Sequence record: OR061068
Direction: 5' to 3' (one strand)
Origin: Escherichia phage CR01
DNA length: 45,236 nucleotides
This document shows positions 19,888 through 34,090 of this stretch, piece by piece; position 1 is the stretch's first letter, and every line of letters starts with the position of its first letter. A program made the translations under genes and the position numbers. A model generated the notes under the pieces. That model ran no database searches and had not been told where the DNA came from. It saw nothing but the letters and a program-made list of their open reading frames with translations.

Positions 19888-20399
19888 CTGGTAAATTTCC
19901 TCGCAAGATACGTTATTTCTTCTTCACAAAGTTCATCAAGGTCGTTTGACACAAATCCTCTGGTGAATGTTTTGCTGAACTTTAAGCCAGCTTTATCATT
20001 GTCGCCCGCGCACACCCAGTCATACGGCAAAAGTGACATTTGCTGCCGTAGGTCGGTTGGTATATTTGACCCAAGTGCGCTTACGGCATTGAACCCGCAA
20101 TTCATCAAAGCAACAGCCTTAAATATGCTTTCGGTAACAAATACGGTCCCGCTTTCCGGAAGGTATTCCAACCCCCATAAACAAGGTCTTGTTGTTCTGG
20201 TGAAGTACCGCGCGTCTTTAGGGTTTTTACAGTTCTTTTCAGCATGTGGCTTGTAATGCTGGTATCCGCGAAGCCTACCATCAAACCCCCACAGGTAAAA
20301 TGTAGCTACTCCAGAGCCTAAGACTACACGTAAACGGTCAGCGTCAAAACCTCGTGACAGCAGATGCACCTTAAGTAGTAACTCCTCGCAATCCATCAT
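19884..20399 (-). CDS. Toprim-domain protein
   Basis: 171 aa; conserved Glu (VFVTESIF) and DxD (VCAGDNDKAG) motifs in Toprim spacing; start overlaps the SNF2 helicase stop. Confidence 0.4.
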   Translation of the reverse strand: MMDCEELLLKVHLLSRGFDADRLRVVLGSGVATFYLWGFDGRLRGYQHYKPHAEKNCKNPKDARYFTRTTRPCLWGLEYLPESGTVFVTESIFKAVALMNCGFNAVSALGSNIPTDLRQQMSLLPYDWVCAGDNDKAGLKFSKTFTRGFVSNDLDELCEEEITYLARKFTR

Positions 20400-21820
20400 T
20401 TCTTACCTCGTCTCTTCATGTAATTAAGCAATTCTTCCTGGACCGATTTCTTCTCGTCGGTACGCGCGGCAACAACCTCGTCCAGCGTATCTTTAGCAAC
20501 GATATGATAGAGGAACACCGGTCGCTCGTGACCCGCCTGTTTCTGGCGTACAGGGCCTATGCGCTCGACAACCTGCAAATAGTGCTCAAGGTTCCAGCCT
20601 TGCGAGATGAATGCCAGATGATGCCCTCCGTCCTGTAAATTCAAACCATGGCCGGCTGACGCGGGGTGAACGCATAAGATTTCGATTTCCCCGCGGTTCC
20701 ACGCTTCCATCTGCTTATTACCCTTCGCACCTTTGGCAAACGCCTGCGCCTGAGGGAATCGCTTAAGGATGCGCTCCAGTTCGTGCTTGAACTGATAAGC
20801 CACCAGTAACGTAGCGCCCTGTAACTCCTCAACGATGGACTCCAGCGCATCCAGTTTCGTGTCGTGCACTTTCTCCCAGTCTTTCGTTGCTTCTCCGTCT
20901 GGCCCCGATACATATACAGCGCCGGATGCAATCTGTAGGCACTTCGACGTCTTAGCTGCAGCGTTAGCCGCTTCGACTTCTCCGCTCTCCAGTTCCGCGA
21001 ATAATTTCTCCTCCATATCGATGTACGCCTGACGCGCTTTCTTCGGCAGGTCGATTTCAACCGGTACAATAATCGGTGCTTCGCACCCGAACCACTCGGC
21101 GGCGTCAATCGTGAGACTAATGTCCTTCATCTTCTGGTGAATTTCATTATCCGCACCAGGGCGCGCATGATACTCCCGCGCCATAGCCGATTTGCCTTTC
21201 TGCACCGAGTTAAACCAGCGGTCGGTGAATGCGGTGTATGAAGACCCCAGGCGCTCGCCAGCGTCGATAAACCAGTTCTGGCCCCACAAATCCTTGAGGC
21301 CGTTAGGTGATGGTGTACCTGTAAGGTTAATGAAACGCTTAACCTTACCGAACGCCACTTTGCTTAGCGCCTTCGCCCGCTTGCTTCCGCCAGAACGGCT
21401 GCGGAAAGATTTAAGCTTCGTGCTTTCATCGGCAACGATAACAGTAAATGGCCAGTCGTCTTTGCCGTAGTAGTCAATCAGCCACTCGATAACTTCGTAG
21501 TTCGTGCACACCACGTTAGCGTCTGACTCCAGCGCCGCGATGCGGCGCTTCTCCGAACCAGTTGCATCGACGACACGAAGACACGGGAAACCCCACTTAG
21601 TTTGTTCTGCGGGCCACGTGCCAGATGCAACTCGCAATGGGGCAAGGATTAACACTCGGTCGTCGTCATTAAGTTGGCCATTGCGGAACAGTCGATTGAG
21701 AACCCACATCGTCGACGAGGTCTTGCCGCCGCCCATACCGCACCAGATATTGCAACGTGGGTGCTGTAGCATAAACGACGTCATTATTTTCTGATATTCC
21801 CTGCGCCTAAACTTACTCAT
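20396..21820 (-). CDS. SNF2-family helicase/ATPase
   Basis: 474 aa; Walker A GMGGGKTS, DEXH-like VIVADESTKLK, C-terminal helicase-like region. Confidence 0.7.
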   Translation of the reverse strand: MSKFRRREYQKIMTSFMLQHPRCNIWCGMGGGKTSSTMWVLNRLFRNGQLNDDDRVLILAPLRVASGTWPAEQTKWGFPCLRVVDATGSEKRRIAALESDANVVCTNYEVIEWLIDYYGKDDWPFTVIVADESTKLKSFRSRSGGSKRAKALSKVAFGKVKRFINLTGTPSPNGLKDLWGQNWFIDAGERLGSSYTAFTDRWFNSVQKGKSAMAREYHARPGADNEIHQKMKDISLTIDAAEWFGCEAPIIVPVEIDLPKKARQAYIDMEEKLFAELESGEVEAANAAAKTSKCLQIASGAVYVSGPDGEATKDWEKVHDTKLDALESIVEELQGATLLVAYQFKHELERILKRFPQAQAFAKGAKGNKQMEAWNRGEIEILCVHPASAGHGLNLQDGGHHLAFISQGWNLEHYLQVVERIGPVRQKQAGHERPVFLYHIVAKDTLDEVVAARTDEKKSVQEELLNYMKRRGKK

Positions 21821-23209: not shown

Positions 23210-25409
23210 TTACTTAGCATAACGTTTTAACTCCTGACCTTCCGCTACAAGAGGGAACCCCTCGGCCCACTCCGGCAACGCACACATTAATTTTTCCAGT
23301 TCAGCCACCGTGTACTCAGGTGTGTCCGGAGTTTCACACACTAATTCATCGTGTACCGAAAGCACGATGGGGTACCCGCCGCCCTCAACATTAATCATCG
23401 CATATGCGAGCAAATCACGGCACAGCGCCTGAACAATGTTTTCGCAGGCTTTGCCGCCGTGGGTGTACAGGGTAGTCCATTGGCGGGTTAACTGGTTTTC
23501 ACCCTGATACTTGATTCGCACATTCGTGTTTACCCGTCCGTCTTCGTCTGTTTCCTTTGTCACACTAACGCCGATTCCCGGATACGAGAGGATGCGACCC
23601 GACGGCAACTCCATACACAACCACCAACCAGGAACCTTCCTGCCGGATGAATCAAATTCTACAGTACGCCATATGCGGATAGCACGCTCGCCATTCTTGC
23701 GCAGATGCGCCCCGCCCAAAATTCACGACCAGGATTACGAACAGCAGCTAAAATTCCGTCTTTAAGGTCGCGCCAGAAAGCTACTGTTTCAGGGTGGGAC
23801 TCCCGCCACATACGCTTGATAGCGTCGCAGGTACGCCACACTTTCTTATCAAGAATATACGATGGTCGGTCATCCTTTTCACCGGGATGTGGCGGTCGCT
23901 TTGCTTCCTGAATACGCGCCCACTCATACCCACGTGCGGTAGCAGCCCAGATGTGGTCGGGGAAAGTCCCGTCCATTGTTTTTGCCATCTCAATAAGGTC
24001 AAGACCTAAGTTTTTAGCAAACGTAACGAACGCTCCGACGCCCCCTCATAGCCGAGGCCAAGCTCGCAAGCCTTGCCTATCTGTCTGATTTCCTTGAAGT
24101 TTTTCTTAATATCATCTGGGTCCATGCCAAACATCTTACCCGCGGTTACACAGTAAATATCCAACCCGGCGCGGAACGTATCAAGCGCGGTTTCCTCCCC
24201 AGCCAGCCACGCAAGCCCGCGACCTTCAACGTTAGAGTAGTCAGCAACAACAAACTTATGCCCTTCTTCCGGTATGATGCAGCTACGCACAGTAGATGCC
24301 GTCAGTTTTGCCACATCGAAACGGCGATGCGCTCGGCCCTTAAGTAACGCTGAAATGCCTTTATCCAGTTCATCATCGTGATAGTACCCGCGTGCGAGAT
24401 TCTGCGGCTGGAAGCCTTTACCCGCCCATCGCAGAGTACGTTTTGCCCCGCCATACTGTAAACAACCGCGACGGCGGTCGTCCGACGAGCGGCCTAACAG
24501 CAGCGGGTTATATTTCGTTGATGCGGTGGACGCGGCCCCGAGGCGCATTTCGATAATCGTGCGGGCGTCGTCAGGTAAATCATCGTCCGCCAGCAGGTCA
24601 TGAAGCGTTGACTTCTGCGCGTTGTGGATGCGGTGCGCGGGGGCGAGTTCACGCAGAATCGGCAGAAAGTCTTTACCGGTAAGCGAGCCGCCGTATTTGC
24701 GTTGGGCTTCTTCCTGTAACTGTGCCTTGTGCTTCTCCACGGCTTCAATCGCGGCTTCCGCCAGTGCAACGTCAACCTTAAACCCACGGTCATTGATTAA
24801 CTGGTCAAGTTCCAGTACACGGTCCTCGAACTCGGAGTTACCCCAACGCGGCAGCTTATGAAAGACTTCACGCATCGCGGTGATGTCGCTCACGGCGTAC
24901 TTGATGAACAGCGCCCACTCGTCCGGGTGTGTTTCGGCGGTGTAACGGCGGATTTTGTAGTTCTTCGGTGTAGGTTTGGAGAAACGCTGAATCAGCGCCT
25001 TGCCGCGTTTATCTTTCGCGTTGTCCGCGGATACACACAACACTTCGCACAATGCATCGAGCGACCCCGGCAGCGCGTGGCGAAACGCCCAAATCATCGT
25101 ATCAATGGTGTTGCTTACCGGAATATCAAAGCCCCAGCAGTGCTTCATGATGAGCCTGTCGAACATTGAGCCGTTGTGCCACACCATCTTAATGCGGCTG
25201 TTCGGCTTAACCAGACGGCGTAGTGCGCGGTGCAAATCACCCGGCATGTCGCTGCTGTCGGTGCAATCCCATACCTGCACAGGCTCGTCGTCAAAAGCAT
25301 AGGTACAGATTAGCACTTCGGTAGTTGGGTGTTCGGCATAAGCGTAGGAGCCGACTTTCTTTAAATCGGCTTCGGAGAATGTTTCAAAGTCCAGGTATAA
25401 GTAGCTCAT
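23210..25409 (-). CDS. family A DNA polymerase with 3'-5' exonuclease domain, split by two homopolymer frameshifts
   Basis: N-terminal exonuclease motif LYLDFETFS; pol motif B-like RQIGKACELGLGYEG; motif C SVHDELV; frame changes at C5 run 24041-24045 and C4 run 23710-23713 are each repaired by adding one base. Confidence 0.8.
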
Positions 25410-25468: not shown

Positions 25469-26095
25469 TTAGCGGCGACGACGTTCGCGGCGCGGTGCTT
25501 CATCTTCTTCATCGTCTTCCAGGTCATCGACGCTTGCAGCGACTTTAGAACCGCCGAACGCTTTACCTTCGCCGACGTATTTAATCGCCAGCAGGTTAAC
25601 GCCGAGAACTTTATATTTCTGGCTGAACCAGATTTCAACGCTTACATTAGCAACGCAGCCGCTGTAAACCTGTTCACCTTCAATCTGTTCGCCGTCTACA
25701 TTGAAGTCCTGCTCTACCTGAGTCTCGCCTTTTTTAGAGGTTACAATAAGCGGCTGTTTCTGCGCCTTCGCTTTGAAGTAGAAGCCTTCCGGGAAGTCTT
25801 CAAACGGATTGTCGCGCTCTGCAATATCTTTAATCGCGCATTTATCCATGTGCTTACCTTCGCCGTAGTTGGACTTCATCCATTTCTCTGCGGCGGCTGC
25901 GCCTAATGCTTCTTCGACTACAGCGTAAACGGTATCGTAGAGCGCATCGATTTGAGCATGGTCCGACGGCAGGATAATGGTTGCACTGTACTGGCCTTTG
26001 GTGATTGAGCCATCATCGTTTTCACGGTCTTTTTCGCGTTCAAATACGTTAACCCATGCAGTGTTTACTTTACGCAGATTTAATTTCAGTCCCAT
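25469..26095 (-). CDS. putative ssDNA-binding protein with acidic/basic C-terminal tail
   Basis: 208 aa; C-terminus DDLEDDEEDEAPRRERRRR; adjacent to the Cas4-like nuclease. Confidence 0.35.
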   Translation of the reverse strand: MGLKLNLRKVNTAWVNVFEREKDRENDDGSITKGQYSATIILPSDHAQIDALYDTVYAVVEEALGAAAAEKWMKSNYGEGKHMDKCAIKDIAERDNPFEDFPEGFYFKAKAQKQPLIVTSKKGETQVEQDFNVDGEQIEGEQVYSGCVANVSVEIWFSQKYKVLGVNLLAIKYVGEGKAFGGSKVAASVDDLEDDEEDEAPRRERRRR

Positions 26096-26149: not shown

Positions 26150-26182
26150 TAGAAATATAATAGCTAACTATTCAGGTGTCAA
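26150..26182 (-). promoter_or_regulatory. sigma70-like promoter with operator palindrome upstream of the SSB-like gene
   Basis: Reverse complement TTGACA-CCTGAATAGTTAGCTAT-TATATT; contains AATAG-N4-CTATT. Confidence 0.5.
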
Positions 26183-26460
26183 CCCTTCCAGCCAGTTATT
26201 TTCTCAACTATCTCAATATACTTGTTTGGCCATTTCATGTTGTTTATGAAACGTAACGCCTGTGTCTTCCACGATTTGTCATTCAGGATGGCTTCGATGT
26301 CGCGTGTTCGCATTAGGCATATCGTAAGGCACGCTATGATAAATGTTGGTATCATTAGCGGCGACATAAGAACCCAGAAAATAATACACGCCACAAAACC
26401 GCCAATTACTCTGAACATTTTACGAATCATTCCAAATCCTCCTCTGTTACCTGATTCCAC
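26179..26460 (-). CDS. small membrane protein (93 aa)
   Basis: Two hydrophobic segments (VIGGFVACIIFWVLMSPLMIPTFIIACLTICL). Confidence 0.35.
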   Translation of the reverse strand: MESGNRGGFGMIRKMFRVIGGFVACIIFWVLMSPLMIPTFIIACLTICLMRTRDIEAILNDKSWKTQALRFINNMKWPNKYIEIVEKITGWKG

Positions 26461-27533
26461 TCAGGACGTTTGTCGTCCGCCGTTGCGACGCATGGCGCGC
26501 CTGGTTTACGGGTAATGAAGTCTTTCAGTTCTTCTTCCGGTATTACTTTAACCGCTTCGGTCGGCGTCATGAGCACTTCTTTGGTCAGCTTGCCGCCGTA
26601 TTTCTCGGCCACTTTCTCTGCGTCTTTCCACGCGCGATTACCCGGCCGACCCTCAACCAGCTTGTACCCCGGTACTTTCTTGCCAGAATGCAACGCGGCG
26701 GCCATAGCTTTCTCGACCTTGTCGATGTGCTGGCGCAACAACGGCAACTTCTCATACTCAGCCACGAGTTGCTCCGGTGTAAGTTCCAGTGCGAAATCGT
26801 CCTCCAGTTCTTCCGCCAGCGCCGCGTTAACCGTCTTTGTACGCGCTGCGCACTGTTCTGAGAACCGACACCACTGACAGCCGTCGACAGACGGCCTGAA
26901 GTCCGACGCTTTCAGGTTCTTCTTGCCGCGGGAATACGCATCAAGCGCTAACAGTGCCCGTTTCTGCGCAAACTTAGCGAACAGTTCCAGACCTTCAACC
27001 GAGATGTCCCACTCCGACGCACCGCCAGCGTACGGCTGGAAGATGACCAGACGGACAACTGTGATGTTATAACGTCTCTTGAGTCGGCGATAAACACCGA
27101 GAGCGTAAAGCATAAGCTGCTTGTTTTCTTTCGCTTCGACACGATGCCGTCCAGTTTTCAGGTCGCCGATAATGAGCATGTGATCGTCGGTGTTCGCCAG
27201 CTCCTGAACGGCAACAAGGTCAGCGGTTCCGAACGTCTCGACACCTTCATACCCAGGATGCAATACCTCAGTAAGATTGACTCGCATTTCCAGCTTGGCG
27301 TAAGTCGCTACGTCGATAATCGCTTTGCAGTAGTCTGTGTACTTGCGCACCTGCTCAATCATATCCGCCGTAATCAGTACCGCGCCTTTCATCGGGCTGA
27401 TTAGCGCCTTAATCTGGCCTTTACCTTCATCAAGCACGTAAGCACCGACTTCGCGCTCTAACGGCAGCGCAGTACCGCGTATATAGGCGTTGAGATGTAC
27501 CTCAGCTATTGTATGCATAGCTGTGCCTAACAC
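26427..27533 (-). CDS. PD-(D/E)xK nuclease, Cas4/RecB-like
   Basis: 368 aa; GTADLVAV, IIGDLKTG and QLMLYAL motifs plus a Cys cluster CQWCRFSEQC. Confidence 0.5.
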   Translation of the reverse strand: MLGTAMHTIAEVHLNAYIRGTALPLEREVGAYVLDEGKGQIKALISPMKGAVLITADMIEQVRKYTDYCKAIIDVATYAKLEMRVNLTEVLHPGYEGVETFGTADLVAVQELANTDDHMLIIGDLKTGRHRVEAKENKQLMLYALGVYRRLKRRYNITVVRLVIFQPYAGGASEWDISVEGLELFAKFAQKRALLALDAYSRGKKNLKASDFRPSVDGCQWCRFSEQCAARTKTVNAALAEELEDDFALELTPEQLVAEYEKLPLLRQHIDKVEKAMAAALHSGKKVPGYKLVEGRPGNRAWKDAEKVAEKYGGKLTKEVLMTPTEAVKVIPEEELKDFITRKPGAPCVATADDKRPEWNQVTEEDLE

Positions 27534-27663
27534 GGCAGCTTTGCCGGACGTGTTAGGAATATCTTTTCACAGGCCAGTGATGCACTGCACGCCAGCCACT
27601 TTTTAGCACCTGACGGCGATAGTAATGCGTGCACATCGTTATTGCCGCCGCGTTCTTTTAGAA

Positions 27664-28026
27664 TCATCGTAAACTCTCCAAATACAAGTTTAATGCCTGT
27701 AACTGTTCTTCTGTGGGAATGAAAGAATCATCGCGGTGTAAGTCGCTTAACTGTTGCAACATTCCTGCGAACTTACGTCTTGCGTCGACAGCGACCATGT
27801 GATGCTTTTCACTTTTGTATATTAATGTTTTCGGGTAATCCTCAAGCCTGCCAGACGATTTATTCACTCGGAGCGCCCGAGCTTCATGCGCAATGTGTAT
27901 GTACTTTTTACCGTTTTGTAGCACAGTAGCTACACCGCTGTTCTTTCTGCGGTCGCCGACGGTATAAACTTTGTCGCCGCTGCGCAAATTAAGCCACCAT
28001 TTATCAGTCATGCTCTGTTCTCCCAC
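27664..28026 (-). CDS. hypothetical protein (120 aa)
   Basis: Track ORF in co-directional operon. Confidence 0.3.
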   Translation of the reverse strand: MGEQSMTDKWWLNLRSGDKVYTVGDRRKNSGVATVLQNGKKYIHIAHEARALRVNKSSGRLEDYPKTLIYKSEKHHMVAVDARRKFAGMLQQLSDLHRDDSFIPTEEQLQALNLYLESLR

Positions 28027-28280
28027 TGGTCAATTAAATGTCTGGTCTTATGGTCGCAGTGCATAGCCCACCCATACATCGACTCGAAGACATAAAAGTC
28101 AGGTTTGGCGAATGTCGTGCGCTTAATCTGCGACACGTGACGGCCTATATCTTTAGGCCGCGGTACTTTGCCTAAGTACGCCATCTCTTCCATCTGGTGC
28201 GCACCCGACGGCGCACGCAACAGCCACAGAGCCTCTGTGTTATCCCGCCTGTCCACGGCAAGGTAGAGTTGGTAAATCAT
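28008..28280 (-). CDS. hypothetical protein (90 aa)
   Basis: Track ORF in co-directional operon. Confidence 0.3.
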   Translation of the reverse strand: MIYQLYLAVDRRDNTEALWLLRAPSGAHQMEEMAYLGKVPRPKDIGRHVSQIKRTTFAKPDFYVFESMYGWAMHCDHKTRHLIDQWENRA

Positions 28281-28591
28281 TGTGCCTTCTCCTGCATTTC
28301 CAGAAAGACTATCATGGCCGCGCGGAGTGGCTTGCCATAGGCAACACCCACTTCTGTATCGTCGTCGTTAAATAAATCCCGAGCGTTTGACGTCGCACAC
28401 GGCATTGTCGGGTTATCTAAAATAAGGCTGATGTTGTTTTCTTCAATAATAGGCCACGCATCCTCTATCCGATTACAATAGTCTACCGCCCCAGAAGCTA
28501 ACTCCATCTGATGTCCTCGAGAAACATCGCCGTATAGCGTACGGCTAACCCGTGCATTAATTTCTATGTCTGTTAAATTTTCGTAGTTCAT
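28277..28591 (-). CDS. hypothetical protein (104 aa)
   Basis: Track ORF; start overlaps the downstream gene. Confidence 0.3.
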   Translation of the reverse strand: MNYENLTDIEINARVSRTLYGDVSRGHQMELASGAVDYCNRIEDAWPIIEENNISLILDNPTMPCATSNARDLFNDDDTEVGVAYGKPLRAAMIVFLEMQEKAQ

Positions 28592-28634
28592 AATTCCGAC
28601 CCTCAGTTAAAGCGGCCCGAAGGCCGCCAGATAG

Positions 28635-29153
28635 TTATTCTTCTTCGAAATACTTGTTCTTGATTGCCGTCAGGCGCTCCAGGTATTCAGCCAGGTCTTC
28701 GTCTTTAATCGCGGCAATCTTCATCTTCTTACCGGTGAACTCCTCCAGCAGTTCATCGGAATCATCGCACGCAGCATCACTCGGACCTTCATTAATCGCA
28801 TCGTCGATAGCCTGAATCTGGTCACGAAGAGACTGGTAATCGACCTCTTCTTTCTCTTCTTCTGGTTCTGGAGTCGGCTCCTCTACTTTGGCCTTACGCG
28901 GCTTGCGCTTCGGCTTCTCTTCTTCTGCTGGTTTAGTGTCAACGGTGTCTTCACCTTCAACAGGGATTTCTTTTGTTGCTTCTTTCGCAACAGTGGTCTC
29001 GATTGTTGCGGTTTCTGCGACACCACTGTCGACGTCTTTACCATATGGCGCCGTGATAGCCTTCGGCAGTTCGGTACGGCGTGCACTGTTCGCAGCAATC
29101 AGTTCATGCGCAACTACGAAACGTTCCAGTAATTTTAAGAATTGTTCTAACAT
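28635..29153 (-). CDS. hypothetical acidic low-complexity protein (172 aa)
   Basis: Central EEEKPKRKPRKAKVEEPTPEPEEEKEE region. Confidence 0.3.
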   Translation of the reverse strand: MLEQFLKLLERFVVAHELIAANSARRTELPKAITAPYGKDVDSGVAETATIETTVAKEATKEIPVEGEDTVDTKPAEEEKPKRKPRKAKVEEPTPEPEEEKEEVDYQSLRDQIQAIDDAINEGPSDAACDDSDELLEEFTGKKMKIAAIKDEDLAEYLERLTAIKNKYFEEE

Positions 29154-29175
29154 TTGTTTCTCCTGTTTATTTAGG

Positions 29176-29412
29176 TTACTCGCCGTCGCCTTCTGTAAGG
29201 CTATCGTCTATTAATTCAAATTTACCGTTTGAGTGTTGGATAGCTTCTTGCCCGCAATGGTCGCAAACCACCAGTTTATCGAATCCGTCAAACTCGTCCC
29301 CGACTACGCAAGAAAGTACAAATTTATGTTTTGTACATACTTCTTGCGGTTCACCGAAAATTGCCCGGAAACATTTAGCTATAGCTCCTGTGATTATGTT
29401 CATATCTGTCAC
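29176..29412 (-). CDS. hypothetical Cys-containing small protein (78 aa)
   Basis: Five Cys/His positions (C..C..C..C-DHC); ribosome-binding site GAGAGG before ATG; directly downstream of a consensus promoter. Confidence 0.35.
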   Translation of the reverse strand: MTDMNIITGAIAKCFRAIFGEPQEVCTKHKFVLSCVVGDEFDGFDKLVVCDHCGQEAIQHSNGKFELIDDSLTEGDGE

Positions 29413-29525
29413 CTCTCGTTTTGTATGGGCTAACTATAATAGCGAACTATTCACTTGTCAATGGGCTTTTCTAAAATAATTAATATGGTACTATTCACAT
29501 ATCAACTGACTAAGGAGTAATTGAC
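29413..29525. promoter_or_regulatory. divergent promoter region with two operator palindromes
   Basis: Minus direction TTGACA-N17-TATAGT around AATAG-TTCG-CTATT; plus direction a second TACTATTCA copy and ribosome-binding site AAGGAG before ATG 29526. Confidence 0.6.
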
Positions 29526-29741
29526 ATGCAACCATCTGAACTAGGCATCCGTGTAGAACAGCGCCGTAAAGAACTCGGCATCTCCCAGCGCCGTCTGGCT
29601 GTGCTGACCGGGGTTTCCCAGGGCGCAATTAACCAGCTTGCACTCGGTGTAACTCAGGACGTCCGCCCAGCAACGCTGTTTAAACTGGCGGAAGTGCTGG
29701 AAGTAGACGCCAAGTGGCTGGCGCTAGGTGAAGGGGCTTAA
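29526..29741 (+). CDS. XRE/Cro-like helix-turn-helix transcriptional regulator
   Basis: 71 aa; HTH signature LGISQRRLAVLTGVSQGAINQL; only + strand gene inside the minus-strand replication block. Confidence 0.65.
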   Translation: MQPSELGIRVEQRRKELGISQRRLAVLTGVSQGAINQLALGVTQDVRPATLFKLAEVLEVDAKWLALGEGA

Positions 29742-29757
29742 CGCCCCTTTCTTTTAC

Positions 29758-32014
29758 CTACTCCAAATCCTCCTCTGTCACCACCAGCATTTCATTCGGT
29801 TCGTATATTGTCTTCGGCCTTAATCTGTCCCCCATCTTTTCGGGTATCCGGTATGTGCCGGGGACAACTTCACCGTTAACATCACATCCGAGCATCAACT
29901 CCCCGTCTTTCAGCATCTTCTCGAGATGATGGTTGGTGATGGCGTGGTCCCCCGAGTTCGCCACTATCTGCCGTTGGGTAAAACCTCGTCCGGTGTCGTC
30001 GGACTGTTGCAGGTCTTCCAGCGCGGCGAGTATTGATTCCTTACGCCCTTCATCCTTCCCGCGTTTTACAGCATTATTTACGTTTTCTTTACCTTCTTTA
30101 GTTAACCCTTCTTCCCGCTCCTTCTCCTCGTCAGTTTTGAACGGCTCGAAGCCCCACGGCATCAGCACAAGCGCCTTGTGCGGCTCAGGCAGATCGAGGT
30201 TTACGATTGTGCCGTATTCCTCTGTGCTACCGAGGAACTCAACCGCACGGTATTCTTTCGGAGGCGGGGCTTCACGGAACTGTACCGACTCCAGAACCAT
30301 GCCAACCGTTTTCTGTTGAGGCCCATGCTTAAATTTCGAGTGGTATACGTTTATCTGGCGGCCGGTAGCGCGCTCAATTGTCAGCTCCACATCAACACCG
30401 GCATACAGCGCCCCGCTACCACGGGCTTTCTTTCCACCCTTAGGCGTATGGTGGACGACACCCACAGCGGCTTTAGTTGCGTCGCGTACTTTTTAAGGAT
30501 GGCGATAACTTTACCCATGCCAATTGCAGTTGATGAACTGTTCTCGTCGAACTTGTCAATTGTCAGGGCCAGCGTCTGGTTGAGGGTATCGAACGCGACC
30601 ATACCAATAGGCTCGTCCCCTGCAGCTTCACGCATCCTGCGGATTAGCGCGGGGATTTTTTATCACCATGCGCGGCGAGCACCTCACCCATATCAATGAC
30701 ATGTACGTAATCTTTACCTTCCTCGCCGTATTTAGCCGCGAGCGCGTCAATACGTGTGCGTGTAGCTGCGCCTCCCTCACCGTCGATATAGAAATGGTGG
30801 CAACGCTGGGTATCCGCCCCGGCAAACCGGTATCCGGCGGCGCTCAGGTACATCATCCCCAGCGTATAGAACGATTTGTACGTGCCGGATTCCCCAACAA
30901 TATCCCAGATACAATCTGACGGCATGTACCCCTCAACGACGAAATCAGCCTTTACCGGTTCCGGTAGCTCGTCCTCTTCTGAGTCATCATCGTCTTCCAG
31001 GTCGTCGAGGCTGCATGAAACAGATTCACGCGCACCCCATCCGATAGCCCCGGCGACTTCACTGAACGGCAGCCCAGTCGCATCACACGCGTATTTCCAC
31101 ACCTCTTTCGGCGACATGCCTTCGGTTGCCGTGATGTCGGTGTCGTGAATCATCGTTACGTTCGGCGCTTCATATCCCTCGCGCGGGAAGCATAGCAGGA
31201 AGTCGTCCGGACGCGGCGTCGGGTCGCTGTAGTTCTCTGCGTGTTCCGGTGTAGCTGGCATTTTTAGTCCGCGCGGCGTCATGATGCCACCGTACTCGAA
31301 CGCCAGTGCCTCAAACGCATCAGTAAACGCAGTGCGCAGTTCTTCCGGTATCTGGTAGTCAGATGCGCTGCTGATGTCAACGGCTGGGACGCCTTCCAGT
31401 AACTCATCAGGGTCAATCAGGTCGTTGCGGCGCGACCAGATAACAGTAGAGCCAACTGGCGGCAGGTACATCGGCTGCGACAGAGTGAACCCGCTGCGGT
31501 CCGCGCCCATGCCTTTGAAGAAGTGCTCCAGTAATCCATGGCGAACACGGATGATGTCGCCACCTTCAACCGGGCGGGCCAGCGGCATGACGACGCGAAA
31601 GCGCGGCGACTCGTCGGTATGTGATGCCGTGGTGTAGAGACACATCGCCTGGCGGCTGCGCTTAACCAGGCGCACCGCTTCCTGATACTCTTCCGGCGTT
31701 GTGCTGTCGAAGTCCAGGTACGCCAGCGACGATTTGCTTACAGACGCATCACAGCGATAGAAGAAGCCTTTGCGCGCCTGCTTAAAGTCACCGGTTTCCG
31801 GGTCTTTTACGGTGCTGTGCGTAGAGTCGCACGCGGCAGTGATATACCCCGGCGCGGTCTTAGGGCTAATCCCGTCACGAACGGCATCGAGCGGCTGGAT
31901 TAACTCTTTCAGGTCGTCCAGTGTTGCCGTGTGGGTAGTTCTGACGTTTATATCCTTTTTCTCTGCCCGCGCGTTGCGACGTGACCACGAGTAGGATAAA
32001 ATTACATCGGACAT
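29758..32014 (-). CDS. DNA primase-helicase (primase-like N-domain plus RecA/DnaB-like C-domain), split by two homopolymer frameshifts
   Basis: N-domain LAYLDFDS (DxD-type); P-loop-like GESGTYKS; C-region VVHHTPKGGKKARGSGALYAG resembles the DnaB H4 motif; frame changes at T6 run 30656-30661 and T5 run 30490-30494 repaired by adding one base. Confidence 0.6.
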
Positions 32015-32302
32015 GTTGTATATTCCTTAAGCAAGTAATTTGGCCTCGGCGTTCACCGCGTCGGGGCTTTCTTTTATTCCAGGTCTTCTAAAGTAGCGGT
32101 CATTCCGCGAACTTCGGCAACAGCACTATATTTCCCGCCAACATTTTTCACGACACCAGATTTAACCAGTACCTTCAACGACCCTTCAATAATGGCGGAA
32201 CTATAGTACCTAAAATAACTACGGCGCAAGTCCATAACGCTGCACGACCCTTTTTACAGGTTAATGAAACGACTGCCGTAAATACGCGGGACTGGAACTC
32301 GG

Positions 32303-32506
32303 TCATTTTACATTCTCCTTAATCCACGCTTCCACTTTCTCCAGGTCGAAAGTACCCGGCTGCCGGCGGCCCATAATACGGATACAACAATCCGGGAACT
32401 TCCCACTCTTTAACCAGTTATTCAGCGTGCGACGGGTAACCCCAATACGCTCGGCTACTTCATTCTGTGTCATTCTCAAACCCCCATTATCAGTTAACGA
32501 AACCAA
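32303..32506 (-). CDS. AlpA/excisionase-type HTH DNA-binding protein
   Basis: 67 aa; MTQNEVAERIGVTRRTLNNWLKSGKFP; preceded by a TTGATT-N17-TATACT promoter-like sequence. Confidence 0.55.
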   Translation of the reverse strand: MVSLTDNGGLRMTQNEVAERIGVTRRTLNNWLKSGKFPDCCIRIMGRRQPGTFDLEKVEAWIKENVK

Positions 32507-33898: not shown

Positions 33899-34090
33899 AT
33901 GAAAAATTATGATGCGACTAAGTTTGACCAGGCGTTACTAATTAACAAGTTCTATGAAAGATACCCTTTGTCTGAGTTTAAAACAGATTCTGAAAGAGCC
34001 GAAGCACTTGGATATTTTATGGCTGGCGCCGAGTTGCAAAGGCTTGGAGATTTCATAGTGTACCCTGACTTAGAAGACGATGAGGACTAA
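33899..34090 (+). CDS. hypothetical acidic early protein (63 aa)
   Basis: Track ORF; C-terminus PDLEDDED. Confidence 0.35.
   Translation: MKNYDATKFDQALLINKFYERYPLSEFKTDSERAEALGYFMAGAELQRLGDFIVYPDLEDDED

What the first reader, a model, noticed from the sequence alone, without database searches (positions are those of the whole stretch)
26427..29790. Primase-helicase and Cas4-like nuclease share an identical C-terminal heptapeptide and 3' nucleotide block
Both proteins end in VTEEDLE followed by a stop, and the DNA encoding it is about 95% identical (TCCAAATCCTCCTCTGT[C/T]ACC on the + strand at 29761-29782 and 26431-26452). Acidic C-terminal tails on replication proteins commonly dock onto a shared partner such as the polymerase or SSB (the T7 gp4 and gp2.5 tails are the classic case). 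A duplicated tail implies both are recruited by the same partner.
Basis: seen in the sequence. Interest (0 to 1): 0.5.

Follow-up and report, generated by a model that had tools for sequence, protein, structure and literature searches.

The report
Shared acidic docking tail on phage replication proteins
A coliphage nuclease and its primase-helicase really do end in the same seven amino acids. That ending is one copy of a short acidic, leucine-containing motif carried only by the phage's replication proteins, probably a common docking peptile like the one known from phage T7, though the binding partner is not yet identified.

Summary
The window is a Kagunavirus genome (Guernseyvirinae). The DUF2800/Cas4-like nuclease and the primase-helicase both end in VTEEDLE*, with a 17-nt identical core. 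A 77-aa protein ends in TLEDLE*. The gp2.5-like SSB carries SVDDLED just after its OB fold, and the primase-helicase linker carries SLDDLED. [DE]DL[DE] occurs five times in the whole predicted proteome, always in replication proteins.

The D-L core is kept in nuclease and primase-helicase across about 85 related phage genomes, down to about 45% identity, with free synonymous change. Selection is therefore on the peptide. More distant phages with the duf2800–gp2.5–polA module share other tails across the same proteins (Chi-like ..DDEDEV*). The polymerase never has one.

Best reading: a T7-style acidic docking motif for a common phage-encoded receptor. Candidates are the polymerase or the SSB's ssDNA groove; the receptor is unresolved. 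AlphaFold places the nuclease tail docked in cis.

The nucleotide identity is secondary. It reflects the same peptide plus GAG-GAG codons, which form a Shine-Dalgarno site with an ATGA overlap for coupled downstream accessory ORFs.

This is a new variant of a known kind and moderately interesting.

The parts
26430..26450 (-). Codons for the C-terminal heptapeptide VTEEDLE of the DUF2800/Cas4-like nuclease (stop TGA at 26427-26429)
   Evidence: D-L is invariant in homologues.
29761..29781 (-). Codons for the C-terminal heptapeptide VTEEDLE of the primase-helicase (stop TAG at 29758-29760)
   Evidence: D168 and L169 are the only invariant tail columns in alignment A6.
32077..32094 (-). Codons for TLEDLE, the C-terminus of a 77-aa protein of unknown function (phrog_5169) just upstream of the primase-helicase (stop at 32074-32076)
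   Evidence: It reads TLEDLE in Kagunavirus and TPEDLE in Jerseyvirus, with different codons.
25517..25534 (-). Internal copy of the motif (SVDDLE) in the gp2.5-like SSB, directly after the OB fold
   Evidence: The same position reads ATDDDLEG, ATDSDLDD or CSDEDLGD in other lineages. AF2 pLDDT is 50-70 here against below 50 in the flanks.
30995..31012 (-). Internal copy of the motif (SLDDLE, followed by DDDD) in the linker between the primase and helicase parts of the primase-helicase
   Evidence: C-x-x-[DE]-D-L-[DEM]-D is conserved at this position in most related lineages.
26427..27667 (-). DUF2800 / PD-(D/E)XK (Cas4/AddB/AdnA-like, four-Cys) nuclease gene. It is broken in this window by a one-base deletion in a T run at about 27563.
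   Evidence: Pfam PF10926 and PF12705. Fold match to AdnA, MGME1, AddB and Cas4. Frameshift. AF2 mean pLDDT is 93.6, with tail pLDDT of 88-94.
29758..32014 (-). Replicative primase-helicase gene (AAA_25 helicase core). It is split into three frames in this window by one-base deletions in T runs at about 30489 and about 30655.
   Evidence: Pfam PF13481. phrog_3228, replicative helicase-primase. Frameshifts.
32074..32306 (-). Gene for the 77-aa tail-bearing protein, broken by a one-base deletion in a T run at about 32250
25469..26095 (-). Gp2.5-like (Enc34-type, PF10991) ssDNA-binding/annealing protein. It carries the motif internally and is also a candidate receptor through its OB groove. It ends in an acidic run followed by RRERRRR.
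26437..26444 (-). Shine-Dalgarno-like GAGGAGGA formed by the Glu-Glu-Asp codons of the nuclease tail, 7 nt upstream of the ATG at 26430-26428. That ATG overlaps the nuclease stop codon (ATGA).
   Evidence: Nuclease alleles with GAG GAG..TGA always have an overlapping downstream ORF. Alleles with GAA GAA..TAA have none.
26179..26430 (-). 83-aa putative membrane protein ORF (MIRKMFRVIGG..), translationally coupled to the nuclease. This position holds variable accessory genes in related phages.
23213..25409 (-). Family A DNA polymerase gene (frameshifted in this window). It never carries the tail and is the candidate common receptor by analogy with T7 gp5.
29730..29750 (+). Terminator-like hairpin between the convergent HTH repressor gene (29526-29741, +) and the end of the primase-helicase gene. 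No coupled ORF follows the primase-helicase tail in this window.

Best explanation
VTEEDLE is one instance of a short linear motif, roughly [S/T]-x-[D/E]-D-L followed by acidic residues or the C-terminus. The motif marks the replication and recombination proteins of this phage. It sits at the C-terminus of the Cas4-like nuclease, the primase-helicase and a 77-aa protein. It sits internally in the gp2.5-like SSB, right after the OB fold, and in the primase-helicase linker.

It most likely works as the acidic tails of T7 gp2.5 and gp4 do. It would be an acidic peptide with one hydrophobic anchor (Leu here, Phe in T7) that docks on a basic site of a common phage-encoded receptor. The SSB, helicase-primase and end-processing nuclease would then be brought to, and exchanged at, the same place on the fork.

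By elimination and by analogy the receptor is the family A DNA polymerase and/or the ssDNA-binding groove of the gp2.5-like SSB. When not engaged, the nuclease tail probably sits on the nuclease itself.

The identity of the DNA is a by-product. The peptide is the same, and the GAG-GAG-GAT codons form a ribosome-binding site. Together with an ATGA stop/start overlap, this site drives translation of variable accessory ORFs inserted directly after these two genes.

Shown here: the motif, its conservation, its co-variation, its restriction to replication proteins, and the dual coding. Inferred: that it binds anything, and what it binds.
For: Motif occurrence and specificity
- Exact heptapeptide at both ends, plus a third EDLE* protein.
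- [DE]DL[DE] occurs 5 times in about 13,500 aa of predicted proteome. All five are in replication proteins. Expected in the replication module is 0.39, and 0 of 2000 shuffles reach 5.

Conservation
- In about 85 Guernseyvirinae, Dhillonvirus and related genomes, every locus holding both genes has nuclease and primase-helicase tails ending ..D-L-x(0-3)*, apart from three isolated variants: one nuclease EEDSE, one nuclease with a 4-residue extension after DDLE, one primase-helicase DDLGD.
- Leu uses all six codons and Asp uses both.
- The 20 nearest 50%-identity clusters of the nuclease, down to about 36% identity, keep the D-L.

Co-variation within genomes
- HK578: nuclease TDEDLKN, primase-helicase TDDDLKD, SSB SDEDLGD.
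- One uncultured lineage: SDEDLS and SDEDLNS.
- The nuclease and primase-helicase C-terminal regions are not homologous (hhalign probability 2%), so the tail is not inherited with a shared domain.

Distant duf2800-gp2.5-polA modules share other tails across the same proteins
- Chi-like phages: ..DDEDEV on primase, nuclease, SSB and an acidic protein.
- One lineage: ..DDEI on four proteins.
- APSE-like: NDFDDVS..ADLI and DDFDDIS..GELI.
- Staphylococcus P240: AEDDFDKL and AEDDFDEL.

Permutation tests
- Tails within a genome are more alike than tails across genomes: nuclease vs primase-helicase p=0.007, nuclease vs SSB p=0.004, SSB vs primase-helicase p<0.0002.
- Controls are flat: nuclease vs polymerase p=0.92.
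- The hydrophobic anchor residue agrees between nuclease and SSB in 22 of 34 lineages against 12.8 expected.

Precedents
- T7 gp2.5 ..EDGDF* and gp4 ..NDTDF* bind the front basic patch of gp5 (PMC12339929).
- In the crystal of the Enc34 SSB, which belongs to the same Pfam family as the SSB here, the acidic C-terminus lies in the groove of a neighbouring molecule (PMC5686142).

Dual coding
-.
Against: No binding data exist and none could be computed.

AlphaFold2 puts the nuclease tail in a defined, confident position: pLDDT 94 for residues 401-410, 88 for residues 411-413, and a helix at 409-412. For the nuclease, then, the motif may be partly a structural or cis-acting element and not a free tail.

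The polymerase is too distant from T7 gp5 to map the T7 basic patch by sequence.

The DUF2800 nuclease is dispensable in the Dhillonvirus Bas14, where truncation mutants are viable (bioRxiv 10.64898/2026.07.14.737667). Whatever the tail does on the nuclease is therefore not essential there.

The permutation tests do not correct for shared ancestry. The Leu-type tail probably arose once, so the number of independent co-variation events is small.
Confidence: 0.6

Rival explanations
1. Cis-acting DNA-mimic tails. Each acidic Leu motif folds back onto the DNA-binding groove of its own protein, giving auto-inhibition or specificity control. The proteins look alike only because ssDNA-binding grooves select similar acidic/hydrophobic peptides. 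There is no common partner.
For: AF2 docks the nuclease tail on the nuclease with pLDDT 88-94. The SSB motif has raised pLDDT relative to its flanks. The T7 gp2.5 and Enc34 SSB tails occupy the ssDNA groove.
Against: This reading does not explain why the exact form of the tail changes together in different proteins of the same genome: terminal V, I or L, spacing to the C-terminus, and the Chi-like versus D-L types. It also does not explain why a 77-aa protein with no detectable nuclease or helicase domain carries the tail. The primase-helicase tail sits at the end of a linker of variable length and sequence, as expected for a free peptide.
Confidence: 0.2
2. The conserved thing is the DNA, not the peptide. 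The block ACAGAGGAGGATTTGGA(A)TGA would be a ribosome-binding site plus overlapping start codon. It would act as a 'landing pad' for translationally coupled accessory genes and perhaps a short-homology recombination site. The peptide would simply be whatever that DNA encodes.
For: In Kagunaviruses the GAG GAG..TGA form of the nuclease tail is always followed by an ORF starting at the ATGA overlap. At least five unrelated ORF families occupy that slot, and at least four more occupy the same slot after the primase-helicase. Alleles without a downstream ORF use GAA GAA..TAA.
Against: The peptide is conserved where the DNA is not. The same D-L tail is written with all six Leu codons and without any SD-like sequence. 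It is present in genomes with no downstream ORF, as in BUCT825, the Dhillonviruses and the 77-aa protein. The window's own primase-helicase tail has no coupled ORF after it. So this explains the nucleotide identity in this window well (probability about 0.8 as a contributor) but does not explain the motif.
Confidence: 0.08
3. The tail is recognised by a host factor and not by a phage protein. Candidates are a host replication or repair protein that normally binds the SSB C-terminus, a chaperone, or a protease adaptor.
For: The tails resemble bacterial SSB C-termini in style: an acidic run plus a hydrophobic residue near the end. This rests on established knowledge of E. coli SSB-Ct, DDDIPF. 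Phage proteins often hijack host hubs.
Against: Phages that infect the same hosts (E. coli, Salmonella) use clearly different tails. Kagunavirus and Dhillonvirus have ..DL.., Chi-like phages have ..DDEDEV, and T7 has ..DF. This fits a co-evolving phage receptor better than one fixed host site.
Confidence: 0.07
4. Recent gene conversion, a duplication of a 3' end, or plain chance in an acidic low-complexity ending.
For: There is a 17-nt exact identity within one genome. Both ends are hot spots for gene insertion.
Against: Identity stops at the motif, and the adjoining regions are not homologous. The motif is old and present in both proteins in lineages that are only about 45% identical. Chance sharing of seven residues occurred in 2 of 2000 composition-preserving shuffles.
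Confidence: 0.05

Closest known systems
Acidic C-terminal tails of phage T7 gp2.5 (SSB) and gp4 (helicase-primase) that bind the DNA polymerase gp5
   Same: Two or more replisome proteins of one phage end in a similar acidic peptide with a hydrophobic anchor. T7 gp2.5 ends ..EEADEDGDF* and gp4 ends ..DWSNDTDF*. The SSB here belongs to the gp2.5-like superfamily. The polymerase lacks the tail.
   Different: The anchor is Leu, 0-3 residues from the end, not a terminal Phe. The identity is seven residues, not two. The tail is also on a Cas4-like nuclease and a 77-aa protein, which has no T7 counterpart. In the SSB the motif is internal and is followed by an acidic/basic extension ending RRERRRR. 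The primase-helicase is an AAA_25-type protein, not a gp4 homologue by Pfam. The polymerase is not detectably gp5-like by sequence search. Binding is untested.
Enc34 ORF6 / T7-type SSBs (PF10991), whose acidic C-terminus lies in the ssDNA-binding groove of a neighbouring molecule
   Same: This is the same protein family as the SSB in the window (weak match to 5odj). The Enc34 segment ..SDAWDED.. aligns with SVDDLED here. It offers a concrete receptor site for such peptides (PMC5686142).
   Different: In Enc34 only the SSB's own tail was studied. The finding that the primase, nuclease and other proteins of Chi-like phages end in the same ..DDEDEV was not reported in the Enc34 paper or in the other papers searched.
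C-terminal tip of bacterial SSB (E. coli ..DDDIPF) as a hub for many genome-maintenance proteins
   Same: It is an acidic peptide with hydrophobic residues near the C-terminus, used as a universal docking handle (established knowledge).
   Different: There, one protein carries the tail and many partners have pockets for it. Here many proteins carry the tail and presumably one partner has the pocket.
Exonuclease-annealase pairs of phages (lambda Exo-Red beta; the duf2800-gp2.5-polA module)
   Same: The nuclease and the gp2.5-like annealing protein are adjacent. They form a recognised conserved module with the polymerase (PMC8093625). Such pairs usually interact physically.
   Different: In lambda the contact is made by the folded C-terminal domain of Red beta, not by a shared short motif. 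No shared tail has been described for the DUF2800 module in the papers searched.
Translational coupling by ATGA stop/start overlap with the Shine-Dalgarno sequence inside the upstream gene; moron-type accessory gene slots
   Same: GAGGAGGA lies 7 nt upstream of an ATG that overlaps the nuclease stop codon. Unrelated small ORFs occupy the slot in different phages.
   Different: Here the SD is written in the codons of a conserved functional peptide. Codon choice (GAG versus GAA) therefore tracks the presence of the downstream gene.

Membership tests
T7-type acidic C-terminal docking tails of replisome proteins | Acid-rich C-terminal segment with a hydrophobic or aromatic anchor at or near the C-terminus | tested here: met
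   The tails are TEEDLE*, TEEDLE* and TLEDLE*. D-L is invariant across homologues. The anchor is Leu, not Phe.
T7-type acidic C-terminal docking tails of replisome proteins | The same tail is present on the SSB and on the helicase-primase of the same phage | tested here: met
   The SSB has SVDDLED after its OB fold and the primase-helicase has TEEDLE*. The two co-vary across lineages. In the SSB the motif is internal, not terminal.
T7-type acidic C-terminal docking tails of replisome proteins | The tail is flexible or disordered in the free protein | tested here: inconclusive
   The primase-helicase tail follows a linker of variable length. The SSB motif has pLDDT 50-70. The nuclease tail is predicted docked, with pLDDT 88-94.
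T7-type acidic C-terminal docking tails of replisome proteins | The tail binds a basic patch of the DNA polymerase, and the tails compete with each other | not testable with these tools
The polymerase could not be aligned to T7 gp5 by sequence search.
T7-type acidic C-terminal docking tails of replisome proteins | Removal of the tail abolishes replication | not testable with these tools
   This needs genetics. The nuclease as a whole is dispensable in Bas14.
DUF2800 / PD-(D/E)XK Cas4-AddB-AdnA-like nucleases | Pfam DUF2800 and PDDEXK_1 matches, the catalytic D..D-x-K, and four conserved Cys | tested here: met
   PF10926 at 6e-69 and PF12705 at 6e-9. D150, D169, K171 and C27, C264, C267, C273 are invariant in 85 sequences. 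Fold matches to AdnA, MGME1, AddB and Cas4.
Gp2.5-like / Enc34-type SSB (PF10991) | OB-fold SSB of the T7 type followed by an acidic C-terminal region | tested here: met
   PF10991 at 4e-16. phrog_112. The OB fold is modelled at pLDDT above 85. The basic RRERRRR end is atypical.
Replicative primase-helicase (AAA_25 / phrog_3228) | RepA/DnaB-like P-loop helicase core with an N-terminal primase region | tested here: met
   PF13481 at 5e-20 over residues 349-528. phrog_3228 over the full length, and primase phrogs over residues 87-208. No Pfam primase domain was found.
Bacterial beta-clamp-binding motif (QL[SD]LF type) | Gln at position 1 and two hydrophobic positions (L..F or L..L) | tested here: not met
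   No Gln and only one hydrophobic residue in TEEDLE. The consensus is from established knowledge.
Translationally coupled gene pair (SD within the upstream gene, ATGA overlap) | SD-like sequence 5-10 nt upstream of a start codon that overlaps the upstream stop codon, with a conserved downstream ORF | tested here: met
   This holds for the nuclease tail only: GAGGAGGA-N7-ATGA, with a downstream ORF conserved in several genomes. It does not hold for the primase-helicase tail in this window. Expression was not tested.

The most novel reading that the evidence does not exclude
The duf2800-gp2.5-polA replication/recombination module, found widely in phages of Gram-negative and Gram-positive bacteria, may be held together by a lineage-specific, multivalent peptide code. 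Every accessory protein (SSB, Cas4-like nuclease, primase-helicase, sometimes the SNF2 helicase and small proteins) would carry one or two copies of the same acidic-hydrophobic motif, and all would compete for one receptor. This would couple end resection and annealing directly to the replisome, that is, recombination-dependent replication. The motif would also act as a compatibility barrier between phages. In Kagunaviruses the DNA that writes the motif has been co-opted as a ready-made ribosome-binding site and start codon at which new accessory genes are captured.
Probability: 0.25. Interest if true: 0.7.

Novelty: new variant of a known kind. Interest (0 to 1): 0.55.

Why it matters
If the motif is a docking peptide, it gives a simple, testable wiring diagram for a very common but little-studied phage replication module. 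It says which proteins meet at one site. It says that the Cas4-like nuclease, which also triggers a retron defence, belongs to the replisome network and is not a free-standing enzyme. It also says which residues to mutate, the D and the L.

The lineage-specific tails could explain why replication genes travel together as a module. They could also be used to predict compatibility when phage genomes are engineered. The dual use of the tail codons as a ribosome-binding site is a neat example of a constraint on synonymous sites, and of how accessory genes are plugged in behind conserved genes.

Tried and rejected
No model coordinates are exposed, so the surface that holds the nuclease tail could not be read.
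- The first protein search with the nuclease returned only near-identical sequences. Diversity had to come from phage records, IMG/VR loci and the representative library.
- I tried mapping the T7 gp5 basic patch onto this polymerase. phmmer finds Pol I and Taq but not gp5, so no reliable residue mapping was possible.
- Longer DUF2800 proteins (P0133 and others) were checked as possible 'Rosetta stone' fusions. They have no recognisable extra domain.
- I tested whether the nuclease C-terminal domain and the primase-helicase C-terminal region are homologous, so that the tail is shared by descent. BLASTP gave a weak hit (E = 7e-5) that aligns the primase-helicase tail to an internal nuclease segment. 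Profile-profile comparison gave 2% probability, so this was rejected. The 77-aa protein shows no similarity to the primase-helicase C-terminus.
- The polymerase's internal LLADDDLPDDAR was considered as a sixth copy of the motif. The loop is conserved as D-P-D/N-L-P in lineages with quite different tails, so it is a structural feature. Rejected.
- The helicase frameshifts were considered as programmed events. All four frameshifts in the primase-helicase, nuclease and 77-aa genes that were compared with BUCT825 are single-T losses in T5-T7 runs, so they are taken as sequencing errors. The polymerase is also frameshifted, but its indels could not be pinned to homopolymers because its 3' part is too divergent from BUCT825.
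- A beta-clamp-binding motif and a C-terminal degron were considered from memory. Neither fits the sequence pattern or explains the internal copies.

Full report
**What the window is.** The region matches Kagunavirus genomes (Guernseyvirinae). It is 95% identical to Escherichia phage M01 and 94% identical to BUCT825. The genes around the finding lie on the - strand and form the replication module:
- SNF2-type helicase (20399-21736)
- family A DNA polymerase (23213-25409)
- gp2.5-like SSB (25469-26095)
- small membrane-protein ORF (26179-26430)
- DUF2800 nuclease (26427-27667)
- several small ORFs
- a convergent HTH repressor gene on the + strand (29526-29741)
- primase-helicase (29758-32014)
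- 77-aa protein (32074-32306)
- an HTH protein

The primase-helicase, nuclease, 77-aa and polymerase genes are frameshifted in this window. In the first three genes the cause is the loss of one T from a T5-T7 run, relative to BUCT825. I treat these as sequencing errors and used intact relatives where full-length proteins were needed.

**The observation.** Both ORFs end in VTEEDLE plus a stop codon. The coding DNA is 20/21 identical (26431-26451 against 29762-29782), with a 17-nt exact core. The 17-mer occurs only at these two places; 0.04 matches are expected even when three mismatches are allowed. No other pair among 576 six-frame ORFs shares its last five or more residues. A shared heptapeptide arose in 2 of 2000 shuffles that kept local composition.

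**More copies of the motif.**
- A third protein, 77 aa and of unknown function, ends in TLEDLE*.
- The SSB has SVDDLEDDEEDE directly after its OB fold.
- The linker between the primase and helicase parts reads SLDDLEDDDD.

In a greedy gene set of 90 ORFs (13,538 aa), [DE]DL[DE] occurs five times. All five are in these four replication proteins. The expected count in the replication module is 0.39, and no shuffle in 2000 reached five.

**Peptide or DNA?** In BUCT825 the nuclease ends SEEDLE*, written AGT GAA GAA GAT TTA GAA TAA. The 77-aa protein uses GAA GAC CTG GAA. I examined four further complete phage genomes and 80 IMG/VR loci. Every locus that holds both genes has nuclease and primase-helicase tails ending ..D-L plus 0-3 residues, with three isolated exceptions: one nuclease ending EEDSE, one nuclease with a 4-residue extension after DDLE, and one primase-helicase ending DDLGD. 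The Leu is written with all six codons and the Asp with both. D and L are the only invariant tail columns in both alignments. The 20 nearest 50%-identity clusters of the nuclease, down to about 36% identity, all keep ..DL.. at the end. Selection therefore acts on the peptide.

**Co-variation between proteins of one genome.**

| Lineage | Nuclease | Primase-helicase | Other |
|---|---|---|---|
| Kagunavirus | VTEEDLE | VTEEDLE | 77-aa TLEDLE; SSB SVDDLED |
| Jerseyvirus | TEDDLEA | TEGDLE | 77-aa TPEDLE |
| Serratia phage Tsm2 | SDVDLA | TYDDLE | SSB TDDDLEG |
| PSDA-2 | TDNDLAN | EEDDLEN | SSB TDSDLDD |
| Dhillonvirus HK578 | TDEDLKN | TDDDLKD | SSB SDEDLGD; nuclease linker TDEDLGD |

The nuclease C-terminal domain and the primase-helicase C-terminal region are not homologous (hhalign probability 2%). 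The 77-aa protein is unrelated to either. The tail was therefore not inherited with a common domain.

**The same principle in distant relatives.** The duf2800-gp2.5-polA module is a recognised unit (PMC8093625).
- In Chi-like phages the primase (..PFDDEDEV*), nuclease (..WDDEDDDEV*), SSB (..DWEDEV*), an acidic protein (..GEEDDV*) and the SNF2 helicase (..VWDDEE*) share a different tail.
- One uncultured lineage has ..DDEI* on four proteins. Another has ..DDDDEL* on three.
- APSE-like prophages have nuclease NDFDDVSDDALAADLI* and SSB DDFDDISEGADAGELI*.
- Staphylococcus phage P240 has AEDDFDKL* and AEDDFDEL...

Across 42-53 lineages, tails within a genome are more alike than tails paired across genomes:
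- nuclease vs primase-helicase, p=0.007
- nuclease vs SSB, p=0.004
- SSB vs primase-helicase, p<0.0002

The nuclease-polymerase and nuclease-SNF2 controls are flat, at p=0.92 and p=0.68. The hydrophobic anchor (L, F, W or V) is the same in the nuclease tail and the SSB motif in 22 of 34 lineages, against 12.8 expected. These tests ignore phylogeny, so the number of independent changes is smaller than the number of lineages. The polymerase never has such a tail. Its internal DDDLPDD is a structural loop that does not follow the tail type.

**How it most likely works.** The pattern is that of T7. There the SSB gp2.5 (..EEADEDGDF*) and the helicase-primase gp4 (..DWSNDTDF*) use similar acidic tails with a terminal Phe. 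Both bind the front basic patch of the polymerase, and the SSB tail also competes with ssDNA for the SSB's own groove (PMC12339929; references in PMC5686142). The SSB here belongs to the Enc34/gp2.5-like family. In the Enc34 crystal the acidic C-terminus lies in the groove of the neighbouring molecule, and the Enc34 segment SDAWDED aligns with SVDDLED.

I therefore read the motif as a common docking peptide for a phage-encoded receptor. The polymerase is one candidate, as the only constant module member without the tail. The SSB groove is the other. Phages of the same hosts use different tails, which argues for a phage receptor over a host one. None of this is shown by binding data.

**A complication.** AlphaFold2, run with 85 diverse sequences, models the intact nuclease at mean pLDDT 93.6. 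It gives the tail high confidence: 94 for residues 401-410, 88 for residues 411-413, with a short helix over EEDL. The nuclease tail thus appears docked on the nuclease itself, at least at rest. This fits either an exchangeable auto-docked tail, as AF2 also draws for T7 gp2.5, or a purely cis-acting element. In the SSB model the motif has intermediate confidence between disordered flanks. The primase-helicase tail follows a linker of variable length. The nuclease fold matches AdnA, AddB, MGME1 and Cas4, so 'Cas4-like' is a fair label. A Dhillonvirus homologue is dispensable and triggers a type IX retron (bioRxiv 10.64898/2026.07.14.737667).

**Why the DNA is so alike in this window.** On the coding strand the nuclease tail reads ACA GAG GAG GAT TTG GAA TGA. 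GAGGAGGA is a strong Shine-Dalgarno sequence 7 nt upstream of an ATG that overlaps the stop codon (ATGA). That ATG starts the 83-aa ORF at 26179-26430. Among Kagunaviruses, every nuclease allele of this form is followed by an overlapping ORF, drawn from at least five unrelated families. Alleles with GAA GAA..TAA have none. The same cassette..GAGGAGGATTTGGAATGA plus unrelated ORFs, is found after the primase-helicase in other genomes. In this window the primase-helicase ends GAG TAG and is followed by a terminator-like hairpin and the convergent repressor gene. So the tail codons are dual-use. This explains the identity at synonymous sites without any duplication.

**Novelty.** I found no paper that describes a shared tail on DUF2800 nucleases, gp2.5-like SSBs and primase-helicases, or this D-L motif. 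The principle is known from T7, so this is a new variant of a known kind. It has a new anchor residue, new carriers (a Cas4-like nuclease and a 77-aa protein), internal copies, and an overlap with a translation signal.

**Verdict.** The partner is unresolved. Interest is moderate (0.55).

Noticed in passing
window 27563, 30489, 30655, 32250 (and the polymerase gene at about 23700-24045): The nuclease, primase-helicase (twice) and 77-aa genes are each frameshifted by the loss of one T from a T5-T7 homopolymer, relative to phage BUCT825. The polymerase is also split into three frames. The closest record (phage M01) is fragmented in the same way. This looks like homopolymer sequencing error, not biology.
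   Followed up: yes
window 25469-25516 (SSB C-terminus); also P0287-P0311: In the lineages with the D-L tail, the gp2.5-like SSB does not end in the acidic tail. It continues with alternating acidic and basic blocks and always ends in an Arg run (RRERRRR, PRKRRRR). In some lineages the extension is 60 residues of repeated ..DEDDEDEEEERPRRRR.. . This is unlike T7 or Enc34 SSBs and is unexplained.
   Followed up: partly
window 26179-26430 and the equivalent slots in L007-L055: The positions directly after the nuclease and after the primase-helicase are hot spots where unrelated small ORFs are inserted. All of them start at an ATGA overlap with the upstream stop codon. They include membrane proteins and others of unknown function.
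   Followed up: partly
window 28635-29153 (-): This is a 172-aa, very acidic, low-complexity protein (phrog_3127, annotated '13.88 kDa late protein'). It has a conserved ending ..KYFEEE* (YYEEE, YFELED in other genera) and an internal DEDLAEY. Its apparent Chi-like counterpart ends ..GEEDDV* like the other Chi-like replication proteins.
   Followed up: partly
window 33899-34090 (+): A 63-aa ORF on the opposite strand ends ..YPDLEDDED*. This is acidic with a D-L, but it lacks the acidic residue before D-L. It is not known whether it belongs with the motif.
   Followed up: no
window 29433-29461 and 26154-26182 (- strand): Two near-consensus sigma-70-like promoters (TTGACA-17-TATAGT and TTGACA-17-TATATT, 11/12 matches). 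One lies downstream of the repressor gene region, the other just upstream of the SSB gene, inside the end of the 83-aa ORF.
   Followed up: no
L003 32749-35847 (Salmonella phage S528) and L071, L136: Some relatives carry a much longer polymerase gene (about 1030-1060 aa), annotated as intein-containing. The window's polymerase has no such insert.
   Followed up: no
window 24540-24580 region of the polymerase; alignment: The polymerases of this module share a conserved acidic loop, L-L-A-D-D-D-L-P-D-D-A-R (D-P-D-L-P in distant lineages). It superficially resembles the motif but does not vary with tail type.
   Followed up: yes
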